Source: a virus. Taken from it: 20,682 nt of DNA. Under the pieces are notes generated by a model. The model was not told the DNA's origin. It made no database searches and saw only the letters and a program-made list of their open reading frames with translations. The position numbers and the translations under genes were made by a program. The stretch lies in UHGV virus genome UHGV-0140731; one strand, written 5' to 3'. Positions within the stretch are counted from its first letter, which is position 1; each line of letters begins with the position of its first letter. Of the stretch, positions 15,930-20,682 are shown piece after piece.

Positions 15930-16730
15930 ATGCAACAAACATTCAATGCGGATATGAATATATCAAACCTTCATCAAAATGTCGATCCTTCAACCACTCT
16001 GCCCGTTATTTGTGGTGTTGAAATTACGACCGACCGCGCTGGCCGTTACAACCTTAATGCTCTACACAGAGCGAGCGGACTCGGTGCCCATAAAGCGCCA
16101 GCTCAATGGCTAAGAACGCAGTCAGCCAAACAGCTCATCGAAGAGCTTGAAAAAGAAACTATGCAGAATTGCATAGTTTCGTTCGAAGGTCGTGGCGGCG
16201 GCACTTTTGCCCATGAATTGCTCGCTGTGGAATACGCAGGCTGGATTTCTCCCGCATTTCGGCTGAAGGTAAACCAGACATTTATCGACTATCGAGCCGG
16301 AAGATTACAACCTGCTATTCCGCAGAGTCTCCCTGAAGCTCTCCGTTTGGCTGCCGACCTGGCAGAGCAAAAGCAACGGCTGGAGCAAAAAATGCTTATG
16401 GATGCACCTAAAGTCGAATTCGCCGAACGCGTTGCTACCGCCAGCGGGGTTCTAATCGGCAACTATGCCAAAGTGCTCGGCCTGGGCCAAAACTATCTCT
16501 TCACCTGGTTGCGTGATAACGGAATTCTGATCGCAACCGGTGAACGCAGGAACGTCCCCAAACAAGAATACATATCCCGTGGGTACTTCACCCTCAAAGA
16601 AACCGTGATCGATACAAGCAACGGAAGCAGGATTTCTTTCACGACTCGTATAACCGGCAAAGGTCAGCAGTGGCTAATGAAGCGATTGCTTGATGCTGGT
16701 GTGCTGGTACCTGTCGCGGCCACGCGCTAA
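15930..16730 (+). CDS. kilA: KilA (KilA-N domain plus KilAC/ANT C-terminal domain)
   Basis: 266-codon ORF with GGAG 5 nt upstream; C-terminal domain paralogous to Ant; size and position (operator, then kilA, then a 281-codon gene) match the P1 lytic replicon as I recall it. Confidence 0.7.
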   Translation: MQQTFNADMNISNLHQNVDPSTTLPVICGVEITTDRAGRYNLNALHRASGLGAHKAPAQWLRTQSAKQLIEELEKETMQNCIVSFEGRGGGTFAHELLAVEYAGWISPAFRLKVNQTFIDYRAGRLQPAIPQSLPEALRLAADLAEQKQRLEQKMLMDAPKVEFAERVATASGVLIGNYAKVLGLGQNYLFTWLRDNGILIATGERRNVPKQEYISRGYFTLKETVIDTSNGSRISFTTRITGKGQQWLMKRLLDAGVLVPVAATR

Positions 16731-16759
16731 CAGACGTAGTAAGAACCACCAGCATTGTA

Positions 16760-17605
16760 ATGCTGGCTAAAGTCACTTTCCTGAGCTGTATAACGATGAG
16801 CGATTTTACTTTTTCTGGCTATGAATTGGCCTGCTTTGTAACACACTCCGGTCTATCCCGTAGCGCCGGGCATATCCTGTCGCAATGTGCAAATCTCGCG
16901 GCAACAACCAGTGAATACTTCATTCACAAGCCTCACCGCATGATTGCGGCAGAAACTGGTTATAGCCAATCAACCGTCGTTCGCGCATTCCGTGAAGCTG
17001 TAAACAAAGGAATCCTGTCGGTAGAGATTGTTATCGGCGAGCACCGTGAACGTCGCGCTAACCTGTACCGGTTTACACCATCCTTTTTGGCCTTTGCTCA
17101 ACAAGCCAAAAATGCGCTAATTGAAAGCAAATTAAAGATCTCTTCAGCCGCAACCAAGGTTAAAGCAGTTCTCGCTAAGACATTGGCTTTATTTGATTTT
17201 TTATCCACACCCCCATGTCAAAATGATACCCCCTCCCCCTGTCAGGATGACGTGGCAATAAAGAATAAGAAGTCACAAGTTAAAAAAACAAAAAGATCAG
17301 TTTCCGGCGGTGCCGGAACGACCAGACTCAAAAAATTGACTTCATGGATCGCTGAGGCAAAAGCAAAGGCTGACAATCTGCGGTTATCCAAAAAACGCGC
17401 TCAAAAACATGAGTTCAAGCAGAAAGTAGAGGCGGCAGCGCGGAAATATGCTTACCTGAAGAACAAGCGTTCTCCTGATATTGGCGGGGTATCAAACTTC
17501 GATAATCTGCCGCATTGCATGACGGTAAACGAAGCTCTTAATGCGGTTTTAGCCAAAAATAAAGATAACGAACAATGGGGTATACCGGCAGGATTCAGAG
17601 GGTGA
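16760..17605 (+). CDS. repL: RepL-like lytic replication protein (HTH-containing)
   Basis: 281-codon ORF immediately after kilA; helix-turn-helix-like segment AAETGYSQSTVVRAFREAVNKGIL. Assignment is by context and size; weak Shine-Dalgarno, start uncertain (ATG 16760 or 16796). Confidence 0.5.
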   Translation: MLAKVTFLSCITMSDFTFSGYELACFVTHSGLSRSAGHILSQCANLAATTSEYFIHKPHRMIAAETGYSQSTVVRAFREAVNKGILSVEIVIGEHRERRANLYRFTPSFLAFAQQAKNALIESKLKISSAATKVKAVLAKTLALFDFLSTPPCQNDTPSPCQDDVAIKNKKSQVKKTKRSVSGGAGTTRLKKLTSWIAEAKAKADNLRLSKKRAQKHEFKQKVEAAARKYAYLKNKRSPDIGGVSNFDNLPHCMTVNEALNAVLAKNKDNEQWGIPAGFRG

Positions 17606-17689
17606 TAGATTGCTCTAATCTGGAGTCACCTGGCGTTTTCAGTTTGAGGTCGGAGATGCAATCTGATTTTTTACAGTTAGCGATCGCTT

Positions 17690-17902
17690 TTGCAGCGATA
17701 TGTTTGTATTGGCTTCTGTGTATACATGATCAGCCGAAAAATGCTTGTTGATATCGACCGCAAAGAACGAGCAGAGGAGATCTTAGTATGGATTTTCTTT
17801 GGCGCGGTCTGGCCATTAGGGATCATGTTTGCTGCAACATTTCTTCTGATGTGGATATTCACCCTTCCAGGTGATTTCTATAGAAAAAAAGCCAGACATT
17901 GA
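17690..17902 (+). CDS. Small hydrophobic protein (possible two-TM membrane protein), hypothetical
   Basis: ORF with hydrophobic stretches (ILVWIFFGAVWPLGIMFAATFLLMWIF); no clear Shine-Dalgarno; could start at internal ATGs. Confidence 0.3.
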   Translation: MQRYVCIGFCVYMISRKMLVDIDRKERAEEILVWIFFGAVWPLGIMFAATFLLMWIFTLPGDFYRKKARH

Positions 17903-18099
17903 TACAATCGTTGCGGGTGCTTGAGGCTATCTGCTTCAGGCATTACCCGAAAAGCAGATAGAAGAAAGCCCCAGATAACATTACGCGTCCTGCAAGACGC
18001 TTAACATTAATCTGAGGCCAATTTCATGCTAGACACATGTAGGTTAGCCTCTTACGTGCCGAAAGGCACGGAGAAGCAGGCTATTGTTAACACCAAGCT

Positions 18100-19600
18100 G
18101 TAATGTCCCCTTTGAACCATTCTAAAATGTCCCCAGACAATTCTCTGGGGGATTTTTCATGATCAAAGAGACTGTTACGATGAGTCATAAGGAACTCCAC
18201 CGACTTCAGATTATTCAGGAACAAGCTGCGGCACGCATTGGCATTTCTATTCGGCAGGTTAAACGTCTGGTGCAACGGTATAGAAATGAAGGGCCTTCTG
18301 GTCTGGTTTCCCACCGACGTGGAAAGCGTCCTAATAATTCCTTTTCTACTGAATTCAGAGCAACAGTAATTTCACTCCTCAAAGGCCGTTACGCTGATTT
18401 TGGACCTACGTTTGCGTGCGAAAAATTGCGCGAGATACACGGTTTATCTTTATCCGTTGAAACTCTCAGAAAGTGGATGATAGAAGAGGGGTTATGGCGT
18501 GAACGCCGTCGTAAAATTGCCCGTATATATCAACGCCGCATGCGACGACCATCTTACGGTGAACTGATCCAGATTGATGGCTCACCTCATGACTGGTTTG
18601 AAAATCGAGGCCCCAGATGTACACTGATCGTTTTCATTGATGATGCCACCAGTGCGTTGATGGCGTTGCGTTTTGTGCCTGCTGAAACAACCCGGGCTTA
18701 CATGGAAACCCTCCGGGGTTACCTTAATGATCATGGCGTACCGCTCGCTCTCTACTCTGATAGACACAGTATATTCAGGGTAAATAACCCAGAGCGGGAA
18801 GGTGAGCTGACCCAGTTCACTCGTGCGATAAAGACACTGGGCATCGAGCCAATCCATGCCAACAGCCCGCAGGCAAAAGGGCGGGTAGAGCGCGCCAATC
18901 AGACACTACAGGACAGGCTGGTCAAAGAAATGCGGCTTCAGAATATCAGTGATATTGAAACAGCAAATGCATGGTTGCCGACCTTTATTGAAGCCTATAA
19001 CAACCGGTTCGCTACGTCGCCTCGTACTACTGATAATGCTCATCTTGATGTGCACCATTCTGAAGAGGAACTGGGTTATATCTTCAGCCTACAGGCGAAG
19101 CGCGTTCTGTCTAAAAATCTCACTTTCCAGTACAAAAGCAGTGCGTTTCAGGTACGCAGTGAGGGCCGGGGATATCGACTTAGGCATTCGGTTGTTACTG
19201 TATGCGAGAACTTTGACGGTGAAATTAACGTTCTGTATGACGGGAAAGCGCTGGGCTGGGAAAAGTATGTTGATGGCCCGGAGCCTATACCACCGGATGA
19301 TGAAAAGAGTGTCCATGAACGAGTGGATAATGCCCGTATTGATTTACGCTCAAAATACTATGTTAAACCTAAAGCTGACCATCCCTGGCTTACGCGCCGA
19401 ACGCAAAGTCATCAGCAAGTTAAGCCCCCGAAGTTACCTAAAAAGAAGCCTGATCCCGATAAAAAAGATTGAAACCAAGATCGATTCGGTTGAGTGCATA
19501 TCCATTCATAGGGTAGATTCTTAAGTCGCGTTTCTGGTGTTCATTTTCGGGTGGTTTGTTACTTGTTTTACCGGGGATATGCCAGAAACGCGCTGAGTCA
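18100..19600 (+). mobile_element. Insertion sequence carrying a DDE transposase (ends not defined)
   Basis: Single transposase ORF flanked by non-coding DNA; no clean terminal inverted repeats could be defined by eye, so boundaries are approximate. Confidence 0.3.
18159..19472 (+). CDS. DDE transposase (rve/integrase-core type; IS481- or ISNCY-like)
   Basis: 437-codon ORF with N-terminal HTH (IGISIRQVKRLVQRY) and catalytic-core motifs (LIQIDGS..., LYSDRHSIF, SPQAKGRVERANQTLQDRL); GGGGGA upstream of the ATG. Confidence 0.8.
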   Translation: MIKETVTMSHKELHRLQIIQEQAAARIGISIRQVKRLVQRYRNEGPSGLVSHRRGKRPNNSFSTEFRATVISLLKGRYADFGPTFACEKLREIHGLSLSVETLRKWMIEEGLWRERRRKIARIYQRRMRRPSYGELIQIDGSPHDWFENRGPRCTLIVFIDDATSALMALRFVPAETTRAYMETLRGYLNDHGVPLALYSDRHSIFRVNNPEREGELTQFTRAIKTLGIEPIHANSPQAKGRVERANQTLQDRLVKEMRLQNISDIETANAWLPTFIEAYNNRFATSPRTTDNAHLDVHHSEEELGYIFSLQAKRVLSKNLTFQYKSSAFQVRSEGRGYRLRHSVVTVCENFDGEINVLYDGKALGWEKYVDGPEPIPPDDEKSVHERVDNARIDLRSKYYVKPKADHPWLTRRTQSHQQVKPPKLPKKKPDPDKKD

Positions 19601-19908
19601 GTCTGGGCGGTGCGCGTAATGAGGCGTTATGGTAAATAGCCTATGCTAATGTCCGCTAAGAGCAAGAAGCGGAAGTTGGCAGTTTTGTGGACTGTCCCCA
19701 CAAAAGTGACTACAGAAATAGTTGCAATTCATAATTGATCATGGGTTGTCAGTTAAACTCGTGGCGATTTAAATAGACTAATTGGGAGGGCGTCCATTAC
19801 TTATATCTTGTAATGTTAACTATCAGAAATGATACAAAGATAATATGTCTTTAAAGAAAAGGCTGATGGCGAAAAGTGGCCCGATGAGGGCCACAATACG
19901 GCTGTCAC

Positions 19909-20241
19909 TTAGACGTAAATATCAATGGTGCCAGCGGTATTTGTATCGTCTTTTTTCTCTTCTTTTTTATCAGGCTGAACTGTCGCGTCTTCATTCTTTT
20001 TCTCTGCCTGCTGCCTTAACAACTGCTCCAGTTGAGCCCAGAGGCTTTCAATTTGCTTCTGTACCAATGCAGCCATTTCTTTTTTCTGCTGTGTCGTCAT
20101 CCCCTCTTCCGATGAGATTTTCCCAAGCTTTTCAGTCAGCACCTGAATTTGTCTTGTGATTTTGGCTATTTCTGATGTTCCTTCCGGGGCGGAGTTGTTT
20201 GAAATAACGGTTGAGGTATTTCCCTGAATTGTGACAGACAT
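19909..20241 (-). CDS. flxA: FlxA-like protein
   Basis: 110-codon ORF (MSVTIQGNTSTVISNNSAPEG...IDIYV) with AAGGAG upstream; size and sequence character match E. coli FlxA as I recall it; preceded by a near-consensus sigma28 promoter. Confidence 0.6.
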   Translation of the reverse strand: MSVTIQGNTSTVISNNSAPEGTSEIAKITRQIQVLTEKLGKISSEEGMTTQQKKEMAALVQKQIESLWAQLEQLLRQQAEKKNEDATVQPDKKEEKKDDTNTAGTIDIYV

Positions 20242-20264
20242 AGATTTCTCCTTTTAAAAAAGCA

Positions 20265-20291
20265 CTATCGGCATGCACAAAAAAATCTTTA
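20265..20291 (-). promoter_or_regulatory. sigma28 (FliA) promoter candidate for the flxA-like gene
   Basis: Minus strand reads TAAAGATT-N11-GCCGATAG, against the consensus TAAAGTTT-N11-GCCGATAA. Confidence 0.55.
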
Positions 20292-20372
20292 ATCGTATTT
20301 CTTGTGTCATTAATTGTTTGATGTTCAGATTGTTTTCCTCGCGGGCTGGCGCGCCTCAGAAAGTAAAGCTTG

Positions 20373-20400
20373 TTGACAGGGGTAAACGTTCGGCAATAAT
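20373..20400 (+). promoter_or_regulatory. sigma70 promoter candidate (TTGACA-16-AATAAT), divergent from flxA
   Basis: Perfect -35 hexamer at 20373-20378 and -10-like AATAAT at 20395-20400; the downstream target is unknown because the contig ends. Confidence 0.35.
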
Positions 20401-20654
20401 TTTCTGCCGCATGCGGGTGTTGCATAAAACGTGTTACGTTCCTTTATCGACAGGTCAGGTCACCGCTCACCCGCCGACGAGAAAGCAACACTGACATGCT
20501 AAAGCAAAAAATAGATGAATAAGTTGAGTTGTGCATATGTAGCCTGACCGTCACAAAGTATATGGTGTCTGTACCAGTAAGATGATGGCCGGACTCTTTA
20601 AAAACGAGCTGACCTGCACAATACAGGATGGACTTAGCAATGGCTGCTCCTGGC

Positions 20655-20682
20655 CTGTCTCTTATACACATCTCCGAGCCCA
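20655..20682. other. Illumina Nextera / Tn5 mosaic-end adapter sequence (contig-end artefact)
   Basis: Exact match to CTGTCTCTTATACACATCTCCGAGCCCA, the Nextera read-through adapter. Confidence 0.9.

What the first reader, a model, noticed from the sequence alone, without database searches (positions are those of the whole stretch)
18100..19600. IS transposase at the junction between the phage module and a flxA-like region
A 437-aa rve-type DDE transposase lies between the P1-like genes and a flxA-like gene that is not expected in a P1-type backbone. The IS may mark the phage-host or phage-cargo junction, or a contig-level chimera. I could not define terminal inverted repeats by eye.
Basis: partly seen in the sequence, partly recalled or inferred. 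Interest (0 to 1): 0.35.

Follow-up and report, generated by a model that had tools for sequence, protein, structure and literature searches.

The report
Hok-targeting transposon fragment beside P1 DNA
The 437-aa gene is a real transposase, but it belongs to a 3.3-kb transposon (transposase, flxA, ydfV, relBE) that inserts into hok/sok toxin loci and normally sits in the E. coli Qin prophage, and its attachment to P1 phage DNA here may well be an assembly artefact.

Summary
The ORF is confirmed at 18159-19472 (437 aa). It is an IS1202-family (ISNCY, ISEsa1-clade) DDE transposase.

The element is larger than a 1.5-kb IS. Its left inverted repeat starts at 18085 (TGTTAACACC...). Its right end lies outside the window. 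In complete copies the unit is 3,274-3,301 bp: tnp, flxA, ydfV, relB, relE, then a right repeat matching the left at 19/26 positions, flanked by a perfect 15-bp target duplication. So flxA is transposon cargo, not host DNA.

The target is a hok/sok locus, cut between its leader (Rfam sok, 17915-18085) and the hok start codon. At least 10 different hok loci are hit at the same spot and in the same orientation. Empty sites exist. K-12's relBE-hokD, flxA and ydfW are a relic of this element.

The P1-to-Qin switch is not at the IS end. It lies in a 45-bp identical tract (17976-18020) inside the hok leader.

No complete genome, plasmid or phage record carries this join. Only short-read, metagenome-type contigs do. 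The window also ends in untrimmed Nextera adapter. I lean towards an assembly chimera (about 0.55) over a real homologous recombinant (about 0.4). The original reads would settle it.

The parts
15930..17605 (+). End of the P1-like backbone: kilA (15930-16730) and repL (16760-17605).
   Evidence: Pfam KilA-N/ANT. Matches P1-type phages at 97.7%. Matches the 92-kb P1-like contig L010 at 99.8%, with all proteins identical.
17915..18085 (+). hok/sok leader: the 5' part of the hok mRNA with the sok antisense gene. The hok coding sequence is missing.
   Evidence: Rfam RF01794 sok, 115.9 bits (gathering score 59), E=5.6e-27. The model's final AUG is interrupted here and reads AUU. In P1 variant MH422554 the hok CDS starts exactly where the match to the window stops.
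17976..18020 (.). 45-bp tract identical in the P1-type and Qin-type hok leaders. The window switches from P1-type SNPs (last at 17975) to Qin-type SNPs (first at 18021) across it.
   Evidence: Alignments. Logan contigs identical to the window's P1 part stop at 18005 and 18020.
18070..18084 (.). Left copy of the 15-bp target duplication GGAGAAGCAGGCTAT, covering the hok Shine-Dalgarno sequence up to 'AT' of ATG. The right copy is outside the window.
   Evidence: The same 15-mer flanks both ends of complete copies in Qin (L001). Empty sites carry one copy.
18085..18110 (+). Left terminal inverted repeat TGTTAACACCAAGCTGTAATGTCCCC.
   Evidence: Unrelated left flanks (Qin, IncI pnd, IncF hok) all converge at this base. 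It matches the right repeat of complete copies at 19/26 positions; the chance probability is 4e-7.
18159..19472 (+). IS1202-family (ISEsa1-clade) transposase, 437 aa. Motifs read from the sequence: D140, D201, E244 and Q251 (E+7).
   Evidence: NF033594 at 456 bits. 98% identical to the 446-aa 'IS1202-like element ISEsa1 family transposase'. Motif positions.
18207..18221 (+). Site of an in-frame 27-bp deletion (9 aa, SINRHITQE) in the HTH region, relative to the 446-aa form.
   Evidence: BLASTP alignment. The 3274-bp and 3301-bp alleles both occur in Qin prophages.
19323..19472 (+). The segment annotated elsewhere as 'ydfW'. It is the last 49 codons of the transposase.
   Evidence: K-12 YdfW is identical to the transposase C-terminus.
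19664..19688 (.). Approximate end of the conserved transposase module. Beyond it the cargo differs between family members.
   Evidence: Cargo variants share element positions 1 to about 1580-1604 and then diverge. Matches to plasmids carrying the element with other cargo (for example the ncr/chr version) stop at 19677.
19909..20241 (-). flxA, a passenger gene of the transposon.
   Evidence: Pfam FlxA. It lies between the two repeats in Qin, IncI and IncF copies.
20444..20654 (-). 3' part of ydfV (passenger gene), cut off by the contig end.
   Evidence: Colinear with L001 ydfV.
20655..20682 (.). Untrimmed Nextera adapter CTGTCTCTTATACACATCTCCGAGCCCA. It creates the artefactual ORF start 'MCIRDR'.
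   Evidence: Exact 19-nt adapter match with 0 expected by chance. The sequence is shown.

Best explanation
IDENTITY (shown). Window 18085-20654 is the left 2.57 kb of a 3,274-bp IS1202-family (ISEsa1-clade) transposon. Its order is: left repeat, transposase, flxA, ydfV, relB, relE, right repeat.

INSERTION (shown). [quoted passage not shown] The cut falls just 3' of the leader hairpin ...GCCnnnnGGCA(A/C). The duplicated 15-mer spans the hok Shine-Dalgarno sequence to 'AT' of the start codon.

CONSEQUENCE. The insertion splits the sok/mok leader from the hok CDS and places hok behind relBE. The leader stays on the left repeat side (shown). Hok keeps its own SD and ATG from the right copy of the duplication (shown). 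The functional result, a relBE-hok operon, is inferred.

ORIGIN (shown). The copy here is the allele found in the Qin prophage of many E. coli. It carries a 9-aa in-frame deletion in the transposase HTH region.

THE P1 JOIN (unresolved). P1 DNA is not joined to the element at its end. It is joined inside the hok leader, across 45 bp that the P1-plasmid and Qin leaders share. So this was not a fresh transposition into P1. I lean towards an assembly join at a short shared repeat in a low-coverage short-read assembly (about 0.55). The alternative is a real homologous recombinant (about 0.4). The confidence given here refers to the identity and anatomy of the element.
For: IDENTITY. NF033594 scores 456 bits. 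The protein is 98% identical to the ISEsa1-family 446-aa transposase. E. coli Qin matches 17912-20654 at 99.3-99.6%, and 759 complete genomes hold a place covering at least 80% of the 17600-20682 query. The exact 437-aa protein is listed in 2,385 blocks of the collection, and every context read was Qin.

ENDS. Qin, two IncI-gamma/K plasmids and two IncF plasmids share an identical block from TGTTAACACC to ...GCGTTGACA. Each is flanked by a perfect 15-bp duplication specific to its own hok locus: GGAGAAGCAGGCTAT, TGGAGGGGCTATGAT, GGAGAAGAAGGCCAT, GGAGAAGTCAGCTAT. The repeats match at 19/26 positions and both start TGT. Uninterrupted empty sites with one copy of the 15-mer exist in complete chromosomes at 98.8-99.2%.

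FAMILY. Across 29 distinct sites the duplication is 13-17 bp, and CAA lies just 5' of it in 20-22 of them. At least 10 distinct hok loci are hit in one orientation.

THE JOIN. The SNP mosaic is shown. The P1 backbone equals L010 up to 18020, and L010 has an intact hok of the other allele. About 300 complete P1-like plasmids span the region and none matches above 97.3%; every listed hit has hok annotated at the spot. Of 671 complete genomes with leader plus left repeat, none has the mosaic leader. An adapter sits at the contig end. L016, at 2.9x coverage, is another P1/lambdoid hybrid at the same locus.
Against: The right repeat, the right copy of the duplication and relBE are not in the window, so the full structure is inferred from copies that are 99% identical elsewhere. 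Transposition activity and hok-leader recognition are inferred from insertion sites, not tested.

Against the artefact leaning: two other independent contigs pass from P1 DNA into the transposon through the same tract. These are L009 from IMG/VR and L015 from ENA, and they differ from the window in SNPs, P1 backbone and transposon allele. A de Bruijn assembler should break at such a repeat, not cross it, unless the competing arms are missing. Logan contig L013 shows a fork after 18020 but no merge before it. That pattern fits a sample in which the P1 left arm really has two right-hand continuations.
Confidence: 0.85

Rival explanations
1. The join is real. A P1-like phage-plasmid acquired the transposon from a Qin-type prophage by RecA-type homologous recombination or gene conversion. 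The left crossover fell in the 45-bp identity of the two hok leaders. The right crossover fell in the near-identical hok coding region, outside the window.
For: Three independent contigs (the window, L009, L015) cross from P1 into the transposon. hok leaders of real, complete P1-like plasmids are themselves mosaics of P1-type and Qin-type segments (L008 versus L002). L097 shows that flanks are exchanged between transposon copies in nature. L013 shows one way in and two ways out. No orphan P1 right arm from L009's metagenome was found in IMG/VR.
Against: About 300 complete P1-like plasmids span the region, none matches above 97.3%, and the listed hits have hok annotated at the spot. None of 671 complete genomes with the leader/left-repeat junction has the mosaic leader. 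None of 71 IMG/VR right junctions lies in a P1 context. In IMG/VR, 44 contigs carry the P1 leader in its intact-type form, most of them from isolate genomes to judge by their identifiers (my reading of the IDs); the only recombinant is from a metagenome. The window and L009 carry different transposon alleles (3274 versus 3301 bp) and different P1 backbones. That would need recurrent events which complete genomes never show.
Confidence: 0.4
2. The transposon jumped directly into the hok locus of the P1-like plasmid. On this view the whole left flank is native P1 sequence.
For: The P1 hok locus has the preferred target (hairpin plus GGAGAAGCAGGCTAT). P1-like plasmids with a Qin-like right half of the leader exist (L008).
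Against: The P1 backbone with identical proteins (L010) has the other leader allele from 18021 on. The window's last 64 bp of flank carry every Qin-specific base, including C18070, which L008 lacks. No complete P1-like plasmid has this leader.
Confidence: 0.03
3. One reading: a self-contained IS of about 1.5 kb (ISfinder's ISEsa1 is 1,609 bp) with both ends near 18100 and 19600-19700, followed by unrelated host DNA (flxA).
For: The ISfinder entry as quoted in PMC10132070 Table 7 gives 1,609 bp, terminal repeats matching at 15/22 positions and no target duplication. The conserved transposase module does end near 19664-19688. A 1,564-bp collapsed contig (L106) holds only this module.
Against: No inverted repeat or direct repeat pairs with 18085-18110 near 19600-19720. 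When the right end is placed after relE, every complete copy has a perfect 13-17-bp duplication. All enterobacterial cargo variants share the same 713-bp relBE-plus-right-repeat module. Harmer and Hall could find no duplication for the 1,609-bp definition.
Confidence: 0.03

Closest known systems
ISEsa1 (ISfinder; IS1202 family, formerly ISNCY/IS1202 group)
   Same: NCBI's annotation pipeline names the 446-aa protein that is 98% identical to this ORF 'IS1202-like element ISEsa1 family transposase'. It has one ORF of about 440 aa, ends that begin TGT, and an enterobacterial host.
   Different: The ISfinder entry is 1,609 bp, with no target duplication found (PMC10132070). The unit that actually carries a duplication here is 3.27-12.8 kb and includes passenger genes and relBE. 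The window's copy also lacks 9 aa of the HTH region. I could not obtain the ISfinder sequence itself.
Transporter IS of the IS1202 family (tISKpn21, tISKpn65, ISRel10) and the dif-targeting ISAjo2/ISAba32 group
   Same: Same transposase family. Passenger genes lie between the terminal repeats. Insertion next to a specific structured site is orientation-specific (PMC10132070; bioRxiv 10.1101/2022.12.17.520857).
   Different: Those elements make 3-6-bp duplications and sit 5 bp from XerC/D (dif-like) sites. This one makes 15-bp duplications, prefers hok leaders, and always carries relBE as its right-end module.
ISTde1 subgroup of the IS1202 family
   Same: Long target duplications of 15-17 bp.
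   Different: No target preference or cargo is reported for that subgroup. I did not place this transposase in a phylogeny, and Harmer and Hall put ISEsa1 in its own branch.
E. coli K-12 Qin prophage segment ydfW-flxA-ydfV-relB-relE-hokD (the relBEF operon)
   Same: K-12 carries the right two-thirds of the same element at 99.9% identity, including the right repeat, the duplication and hokD.
   Different: K-12 has lost the hok leader, the left repeat and about 1.2 kb of tnp; ydfW is the leftover transposase C-terminus. The window has the intact left part instead.
hok/sok loci of P1-like phage-plasmids (next to repL) and of lambdoid prophages (hokW/mokW type)
   Same: The leader at 17915-18085 is a standard hok/sok 5' region (Rfam sok). 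About 300 complete P1-like plasmids have the locus at this position.
   Different: Here the hok CDS is replaced by the transposon, and the leader is a P1/Qin mosaic not seen in any complete record.

Membership tests
IS1202 family (ISNCY / IS1202 group) | Transposase homologous to the family. | tested here: met
   NCBIfam NF033594 transpos_ISNCY_2 scores 456.4 bits against a cutoff of 250. The next best model, IS481, scores 125.7, below its own cutoff.
IS1202 family (ISNCY / IS1202 group) | Single 400-500-aa ORF with an N-terminal HTH and a DDE domain; Q rather than K/R seven residues after the catalytic E; extra conserved D residues between the first two D's (criteria from bioRxiv 10.1101/2022.12.17.520857). 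| tested here: met
   437 aa. Pfam HTH_32/29/28 match at residues 20-107. D140 (QIDGS), D201 (YSDRH), E244 and Q251 in VERANQTLQ; D145 and D161/162 lie between. The residues were assigned by reading motifs, not from a family alignment.
IS1202 family (ISNCY / IS1202 group) | Imperfect terminal inverted repeats of about 22-29 bp that begin 5'-TGT. | tested here: met
   The left repeat at 18085-18110 begins TGT. The right repeat is outside the window; in 99%-identical complete copies it matches at 19/26 positions and also begins TGT.
IS1202 family (ISNCY / IS1202 group) | Target duplication in one of the family's length classes (5-6, 15-17 or 27-28 bp). | tested here: met
   The duplication is 15 bp in Qin, IncI and IncF copies, and 13-17 bp across 29 sites. 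In the window only the left copy (18070-18084) is present.
IS1202 family (ISNCY / IS1202 group) | Length 1.3-2.0 kb with no passenger genes (a plain IS). | tested here: not met
   The unit is 3,274-12,843 bp with flxA-ydfV-relBE or other cargo. It is a transporter IS or transposon built on a family transposase. Minimal relatives of 1,364-1,449 bp exist in Hahella and Chromatiales.
ISEsa1 (same IS as the ISfinder entry) | ISfinder identity rule against the deposited 1,609-bp sequence and its 439-aa transposase. | not testable with these tools
Only the annotation pipeline's naming of a 98%-identical protein supports this, along with the size quoted in PMC10132070.
[quoted passage not shown] | Leader RNA structure with the sok antisense region. 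| tested here: met
   Rfam RF01794 scores 115.9 bits against a gathering score of 59, over the full model length.
[quoted passage not shown] | hok toxin CDS directly downstream of the leader. | tested here: not met
   The ATG is interrupted at 18084/18085 by the left repeat. No Hok-like ORF lies in 18085-20682. The locus is disrupted.
P1-like phage-plasmid carrying this transposon (a real replicon) | The same join found in a finished or long-read record, or both transposon junctions found in a P1 context. | tested here: not met
   No record in the complete E. coli genomes, PLSDB plasmids or GenBank phages spans the join. None of 71 right junctions lies in a P1 context. The join is seen only in short-read contigs (L009, L015).

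The most novel reading that the evidence does not exclude
ISEsa1-clade elements are orientation-specific transposons that hunt toxin-antitoxin loci. They always carry relBE at their right end. They recognise the GGCAA hairpin at the 3' end of hok/sok leaders and insert with a 15-bp duplication between leader and hok. This converts type I hok/sok loci of prophages (Qin-like) and plasmids (IncI pnd, IncF hok/flm), and possibly P1, into relBE-hok operons, while also ferrying cargo such as flxA-ydfV or nickel/chromate resistance genes. On this reading the classical K-12 relBEF operon, flxA and ydfW are a decayed copy, and ISEsa1's reported lack of a target duplication reflects a mis-set right end.
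Probability: 0.65. Interest if true: 0.6.

Novelty: new variant of a known kind. Interest (0 to 1): 0.42.

Why it matters
FOR THIS WINDOW. The flxA region is not evidence of a new P1 cargo module or of a phage-host boundary. It is a common E. coli transposon fragment. Its link to P1 should not be trusted until reads are checked, because the contig also ends in adapter.

MORE GENERALLY. The comparison gives the transposon proper ends and a 15-bp duplication. It shows a strong, oriented preference for hok/sok leaders, a second kind of site preference in the IS1202 family after dif sites. It explains three odd features of the K-12 Qin region: hokD lacking its sok/mok leader and sitting behind relBE, the orphan 'ydfW', and flxA/ydfV. 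It also identifies a vehicle that moves relBE and metal-resistance genes between prophages and IncI/IncF plasmids.

I found no paper in the searchable library that links ISEsa1 or IS1202 elements to hok. Subscription literature could not be searched.

Tried and rejected
- A repeat search inside 17850-19900 for terminal inverted or direct repeats found only chance-level pairs. The ends came from comparison with other copies instead.
- Looking for a finished record with the P1-transposon join found none. I searched complete E. coli genomes, PLSDB and GenBank phages with four different queries.
- An exact-pattern scan of species-representative genomes found nothing.
- I searched for the reciprocal evidence: a right junction in a P1 context, or an orphan P1 right arm from L009's metagenome. 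Neither was found, so this did not discriminate.
- I tried to identify the window's source contig by exact-protein look-ups with RepL, two small P1 ORFs and the adapter-fused ORF. The source was not shown, and the adapter-fused ORF is not on record.
- L181 and L182 looked like another insertion at hok. They are a different replacement starting at 18052 and are unrelated to this element.
- Direct transposition into P1 was considered and rejected because the last 64 bp of the flank are Qin-type.
- Spread between hok loci purely by homologous recombination was considered. It was rejected as the general mechanism because each site has its own locus-specific 15-bp duplication, and non-hok sites also have duplications.
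Full report
OBSERVATION. The window holds a 437-aa ATG-started ORF at 18159-19472 on the + strand. To its left are the P1 genes kilA (15930-16730) and repL (16760-17605). These match P1-type phages at 97.7% and a 92-kb P1-like contig (L010) at 99.8%, with every protein in the 10.8-17.6 kb stretch identical. To its right is a FlxA-family gene at 19909-20241 on the - strand (Pfam 53.8 bits).

WHAT THE ORF IS. NCBIfam NF033594 'ISNCY family transposase' scores 456 bits against a cutoff of 250. Pfam sees the N-terminal HTH domains and only a sub-threshold rve_3 match. The sequence shows D140, D201 and E244, with Q251 seven residues after the E. That Q is the signature Siguier et al. give for the IS1202 family. 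The protein is 98% identical to the 446-aa protein that NCBI's annotation pipeline names 'IS1202-like element ISEsa1 family transposase'. It differs by an in-frame 9-aa deletion (SINRHITQE) in the HTH region. The exact 437-aa sequence is listed in 2,385 blocks of the collection, and all ten contexts shown are the Qin prophage of E. coli.

LEFT END AND TARGET. Rfam's sok model (the hok/sok leader) matches 17915-18085 at 115.9 bits, and its final AUG reads AUU here. In the P1 variant MH422554 the hok CDS starts exactly where similarity to the window stops. Alignment of the window with that P1 variant, a Qin prophage and two IncI-gamma/K plasmids shows unrelated or diverged leaders all converging at the same base, 18085, on TGTTAACACC.... 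That base is the left end of the mobile element.

RIGHT END. The right end is not in the window. In Qin (L001) and in the IncI plasmids (L003, L004) the identical block continues through flxA, ydfV, relB and relE. It ends at ...CTGCTTTGCGTTGACA, just before a hok-family CDS.
- Reverse-complemented, that end (TGTCAACGCAAAGCAGAAGTGTCACC) matches the left end at 19/26 positions. The chance probability is 4e-7.
- Every complete copy is flanked by a perfect 15-bp direct repeat specific to its own locus: GGAGAAGCAGGCTAT in Qin, TGGAGGGGCTATGAT in IncI pnd, GGAGAAGAAGGCCAT and GGAGAAGTCAGCTAT in two IncF plasmids.
- A reconstructed empty site (leader, one 15-mer, hokD) is present uninterrupted in complete E. 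coli chromosomes at 98.8-99.2% identity.

This is the classical proof of transposition. The unit is 3,274 bp (or 3,301 bp without the 27-bp deletion), not about 1.5 kb. The window contains positions 1-2570 of it. flxA and ydfV are passenger genes. A repeat search of 17850-19900 gives only chance-level pairs.

THE FAMILY. Seventy-nine loci from species-representative genomes encode relatives.
- Enterobacterial members share a left module (positions 1 to about 1600, the transposase) and a right module (the last ~713 bp: relB, relE and the right repeat). The cargo between them varies, giving units of 4.3-12.8 kb. One 12.8-kb version carries nickel (ncr) and chromate (chr) resistance genes.
- Minimal relatives of 1,364-1,449 bp occur in Hahella and Chromatiales.
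- Across 29 distinct sites with perfect duplications, the length is 13-17 bp (15 in 13 sites, 16 in 11). The three bases just 5' of the duplication are C, A and A in 20, 22 and 22 sites.
- In the ISEsa1 clade at least 10 different hok-family loci are hit at the same place, right after the leader hairpin GCCnnnnGGCA(A/C). The left repeat always lies next to the leader and relBE next to the hok CDS. A few non-hok sites also have clean duplications.

Harmer and Hall list ISEsa1 as 1,609 bp with no detectable duplication (PMC10132070). Placing the right end after relBE resolves that. I found no paper linking these elements to hok.

K-12. MG1655 keeps the right two-thirds of the element at 99.9% identity, from window-equivalent 19288 through flxA, ydfV, relBE, the right repeat and the 15-mer to hokD. 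YdfW is identical to the last 49 residues of the transposase. The hok leader, the left repeat and about 1.2 kb of tnp are deleted. That hokD lacks the usual sok/mok leader and is co-transcribed with relBE is textbook knowledge, which I cite from memory.

MECHANISM.
- Shown: the anatomy, the duplications, the empty sites, the oriented site preference, and the fact that the right copy of the duplication restores hok's SD and ATG.
- Inferred: a DDE transposase makes cuts staggered by 15 bp next to a CAA/hairpin determinant. The insertion uncouples hok from Sok control and fuses it to the relBE operon. relBE helps the element persist.
- Not testable here: whether the 437-aa form, with its HTH deletion, is still active.

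THE P1 JOIN. The switch from P1 to Qin sequence is not at 18085.
- The window carries every P1-type base of the hok leader up to 17975 and every Qin-type base from 18021 on, including C18070. Between them lie 45 bp that are identical in both leaders.
- The P1 backbone is L010-like, and L010 has an intact hok with the P1-type right half. This was therefore not a fresh transposition into P1. It is either homologous recombination or an assembly join.

For an artefact:
- About 300 complete P1-like plasmids span this region. None matches the window above 97.3%, and every listed hit has hok annotated at this spot.
- 671 complete genomes have the leader/left-repeat junction, and none has the mosaic leader; the best is 95.7%.
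- No record in any of the three annotated collections spans the join.
- 71 IMG/VR right junctions are all lambdoid.
- In IMG/VR, 44 contigs have the intact-type P1 leader against one recombinant. Going by their identifiers, most of the 44 derive from isolate genomes and the recombinant derives from a metagenome; that is my reading of the IDs, not a tool result.
- L016, a 2.9x-coverage gut-metagenome contig, is another P1-left/lambdoid-right hybrid at this locus, this time with an intact hok.
- Logan contigs identical to the window's P1 part stop at 18005 and 18020. These are the stopping points I would expect at k=31 (my assumption for Logan assemblies) for a graph that branches at the 45-bp tract.
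- The window ends in untrimmed Nextera adapter. In my judgement this points to a low-coverage dead end.

For a real recombinant:
- L009 (IMG/VR, 8.4 kb) and L015 (ENA, 3.1 kb) cross the same tract. They differ from the window in SNPs, P1 backbone and transposon allele. L009 has the 3,301-bp form, and L015 has an IS30-family insertion at window-equivalent 19663.
- hok leaders of finished P1-like plasmids are themselves P1/Qin mosaics (L008).
- Graph assemblers normally break at such repeats rather than cross them.
- L013 shows a fork after 18020 but no merge before it.

L009 stopping exactly at the right repeat's terminus only shows that the transposon has more than one right flank in that sample.

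I put the artefact at about 0.55, a real homologous recombinant at about 0.4, and direct transposition at about 0.03. Reads spanning 17975-18021 would decide.

VERDICT. This is a real, well-defined mobile element whose sequence is very common in E. coli. Here it is truncated by the contig end and joined to P1 DNA at a short shared repeat. As a feature of this window it is ordinary, and the P1 link is suspect. The by-product is moderately interesting: proper ends, a 15-bp duplication, a hok-leader preference, a constant relBE module, and an origin for the K-12 relBE-hokD/ydfW/flxA region. As far as I could search, it is undescribed.

Noticed in passing
window 20655-20682 (and ORF 20444-20671, - strand): The window ends in 28 nt of Nextera adapter (CTGTCTCTTATACACATCTCCGAGCCCA). 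The 75-aa ORF that starts 'MCIRDR' is the 3' part of ydfV fused to adapter-encoded residues. It is an artefact, and it shows the reads were not adapter-trimmed.
   Followed up: yes
window 19323-19472; L230 (K-12 MG1655 1643500-1649500): The K-12 'protein YdfW' (49 aa) is identical to the C-terminal 49 residues of this transposase. K-12 retains the element only from window-equivalent 19288 rightwards: flxA, ydfV, relBE, right repeat, 15-mer, hokD.
   Followed up: yes
window 18207-18221: There is a 27-bp in-frame deletion between short direct repeats. It removes 9 aa (SINRHITQE) of the transposase HTH region. Both the deleted (3,274-bp) and full (3,301-bp) alleles occur in Qin prophages.
   Followed up: partly
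L007 616-13458 (Phytobacter plasmid pMRY16-398_1): A 12.8-kb version of the same transposon has the same left repeat, transposase, relBE and right repeat, and its own 15-bp duplication in an IncF hok locus. It carries nickel (ncrABCY) and chromate (chrBA) resistance genes as cargo.
   Followed up: partly
L097, L112, L113 (IMG/VR and genome loci): Rearranged copies exist. L097 has an IncI-pnd-type left flank but a Qin right flank, implying flank exchange between copies. In L112 the left flank is an inverted hok CDS. L113 has two elements in tandem at one hok site.
   Followed up: no
29 insertion sites in L001-L129: The trinucleotide CAA lies immediately 5' of the target duplication in 20-22 of 29 distinct sites. 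This includes non-hok sites and the 1.45-kb Hahella relatives. It is a candidate recognition determinant.
   Followed up: partly
window 17785-17903; L009, L016, RCS47-type plasmids: Window-equivalent ~17785 is a recurrent breakpoint in P1-like plasmids. L009 lacks 17644-17784. RCS47-type plasmids have an IS605-family TnpB element between repL and hok, which may account for the ~17785 breakpoint. L181 and L182 replace the hok locus from 18052 with a 198-aa ORF of unknown function.
   Followed up: partly
L015 1-986: An IS30-family transposase (HWEGDL...NENTNRLLRQYFPKG motifs) is inserted in the transposon at window-equivalent 19663/19664 in the ENA contig OKOJ01000004.1.
   Followed up: partly
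L013 (Logan SRR4305097) and L014 (Logan ERR3309126): Contigs 100% identical to the window's P1 part end at 18020 and 18005, the two edges predicted for a k=31 graph branching at the 45-bp shared tract. L013 shows a fork without a preceding merge, which I could not explain fully.
   Followed up: partly
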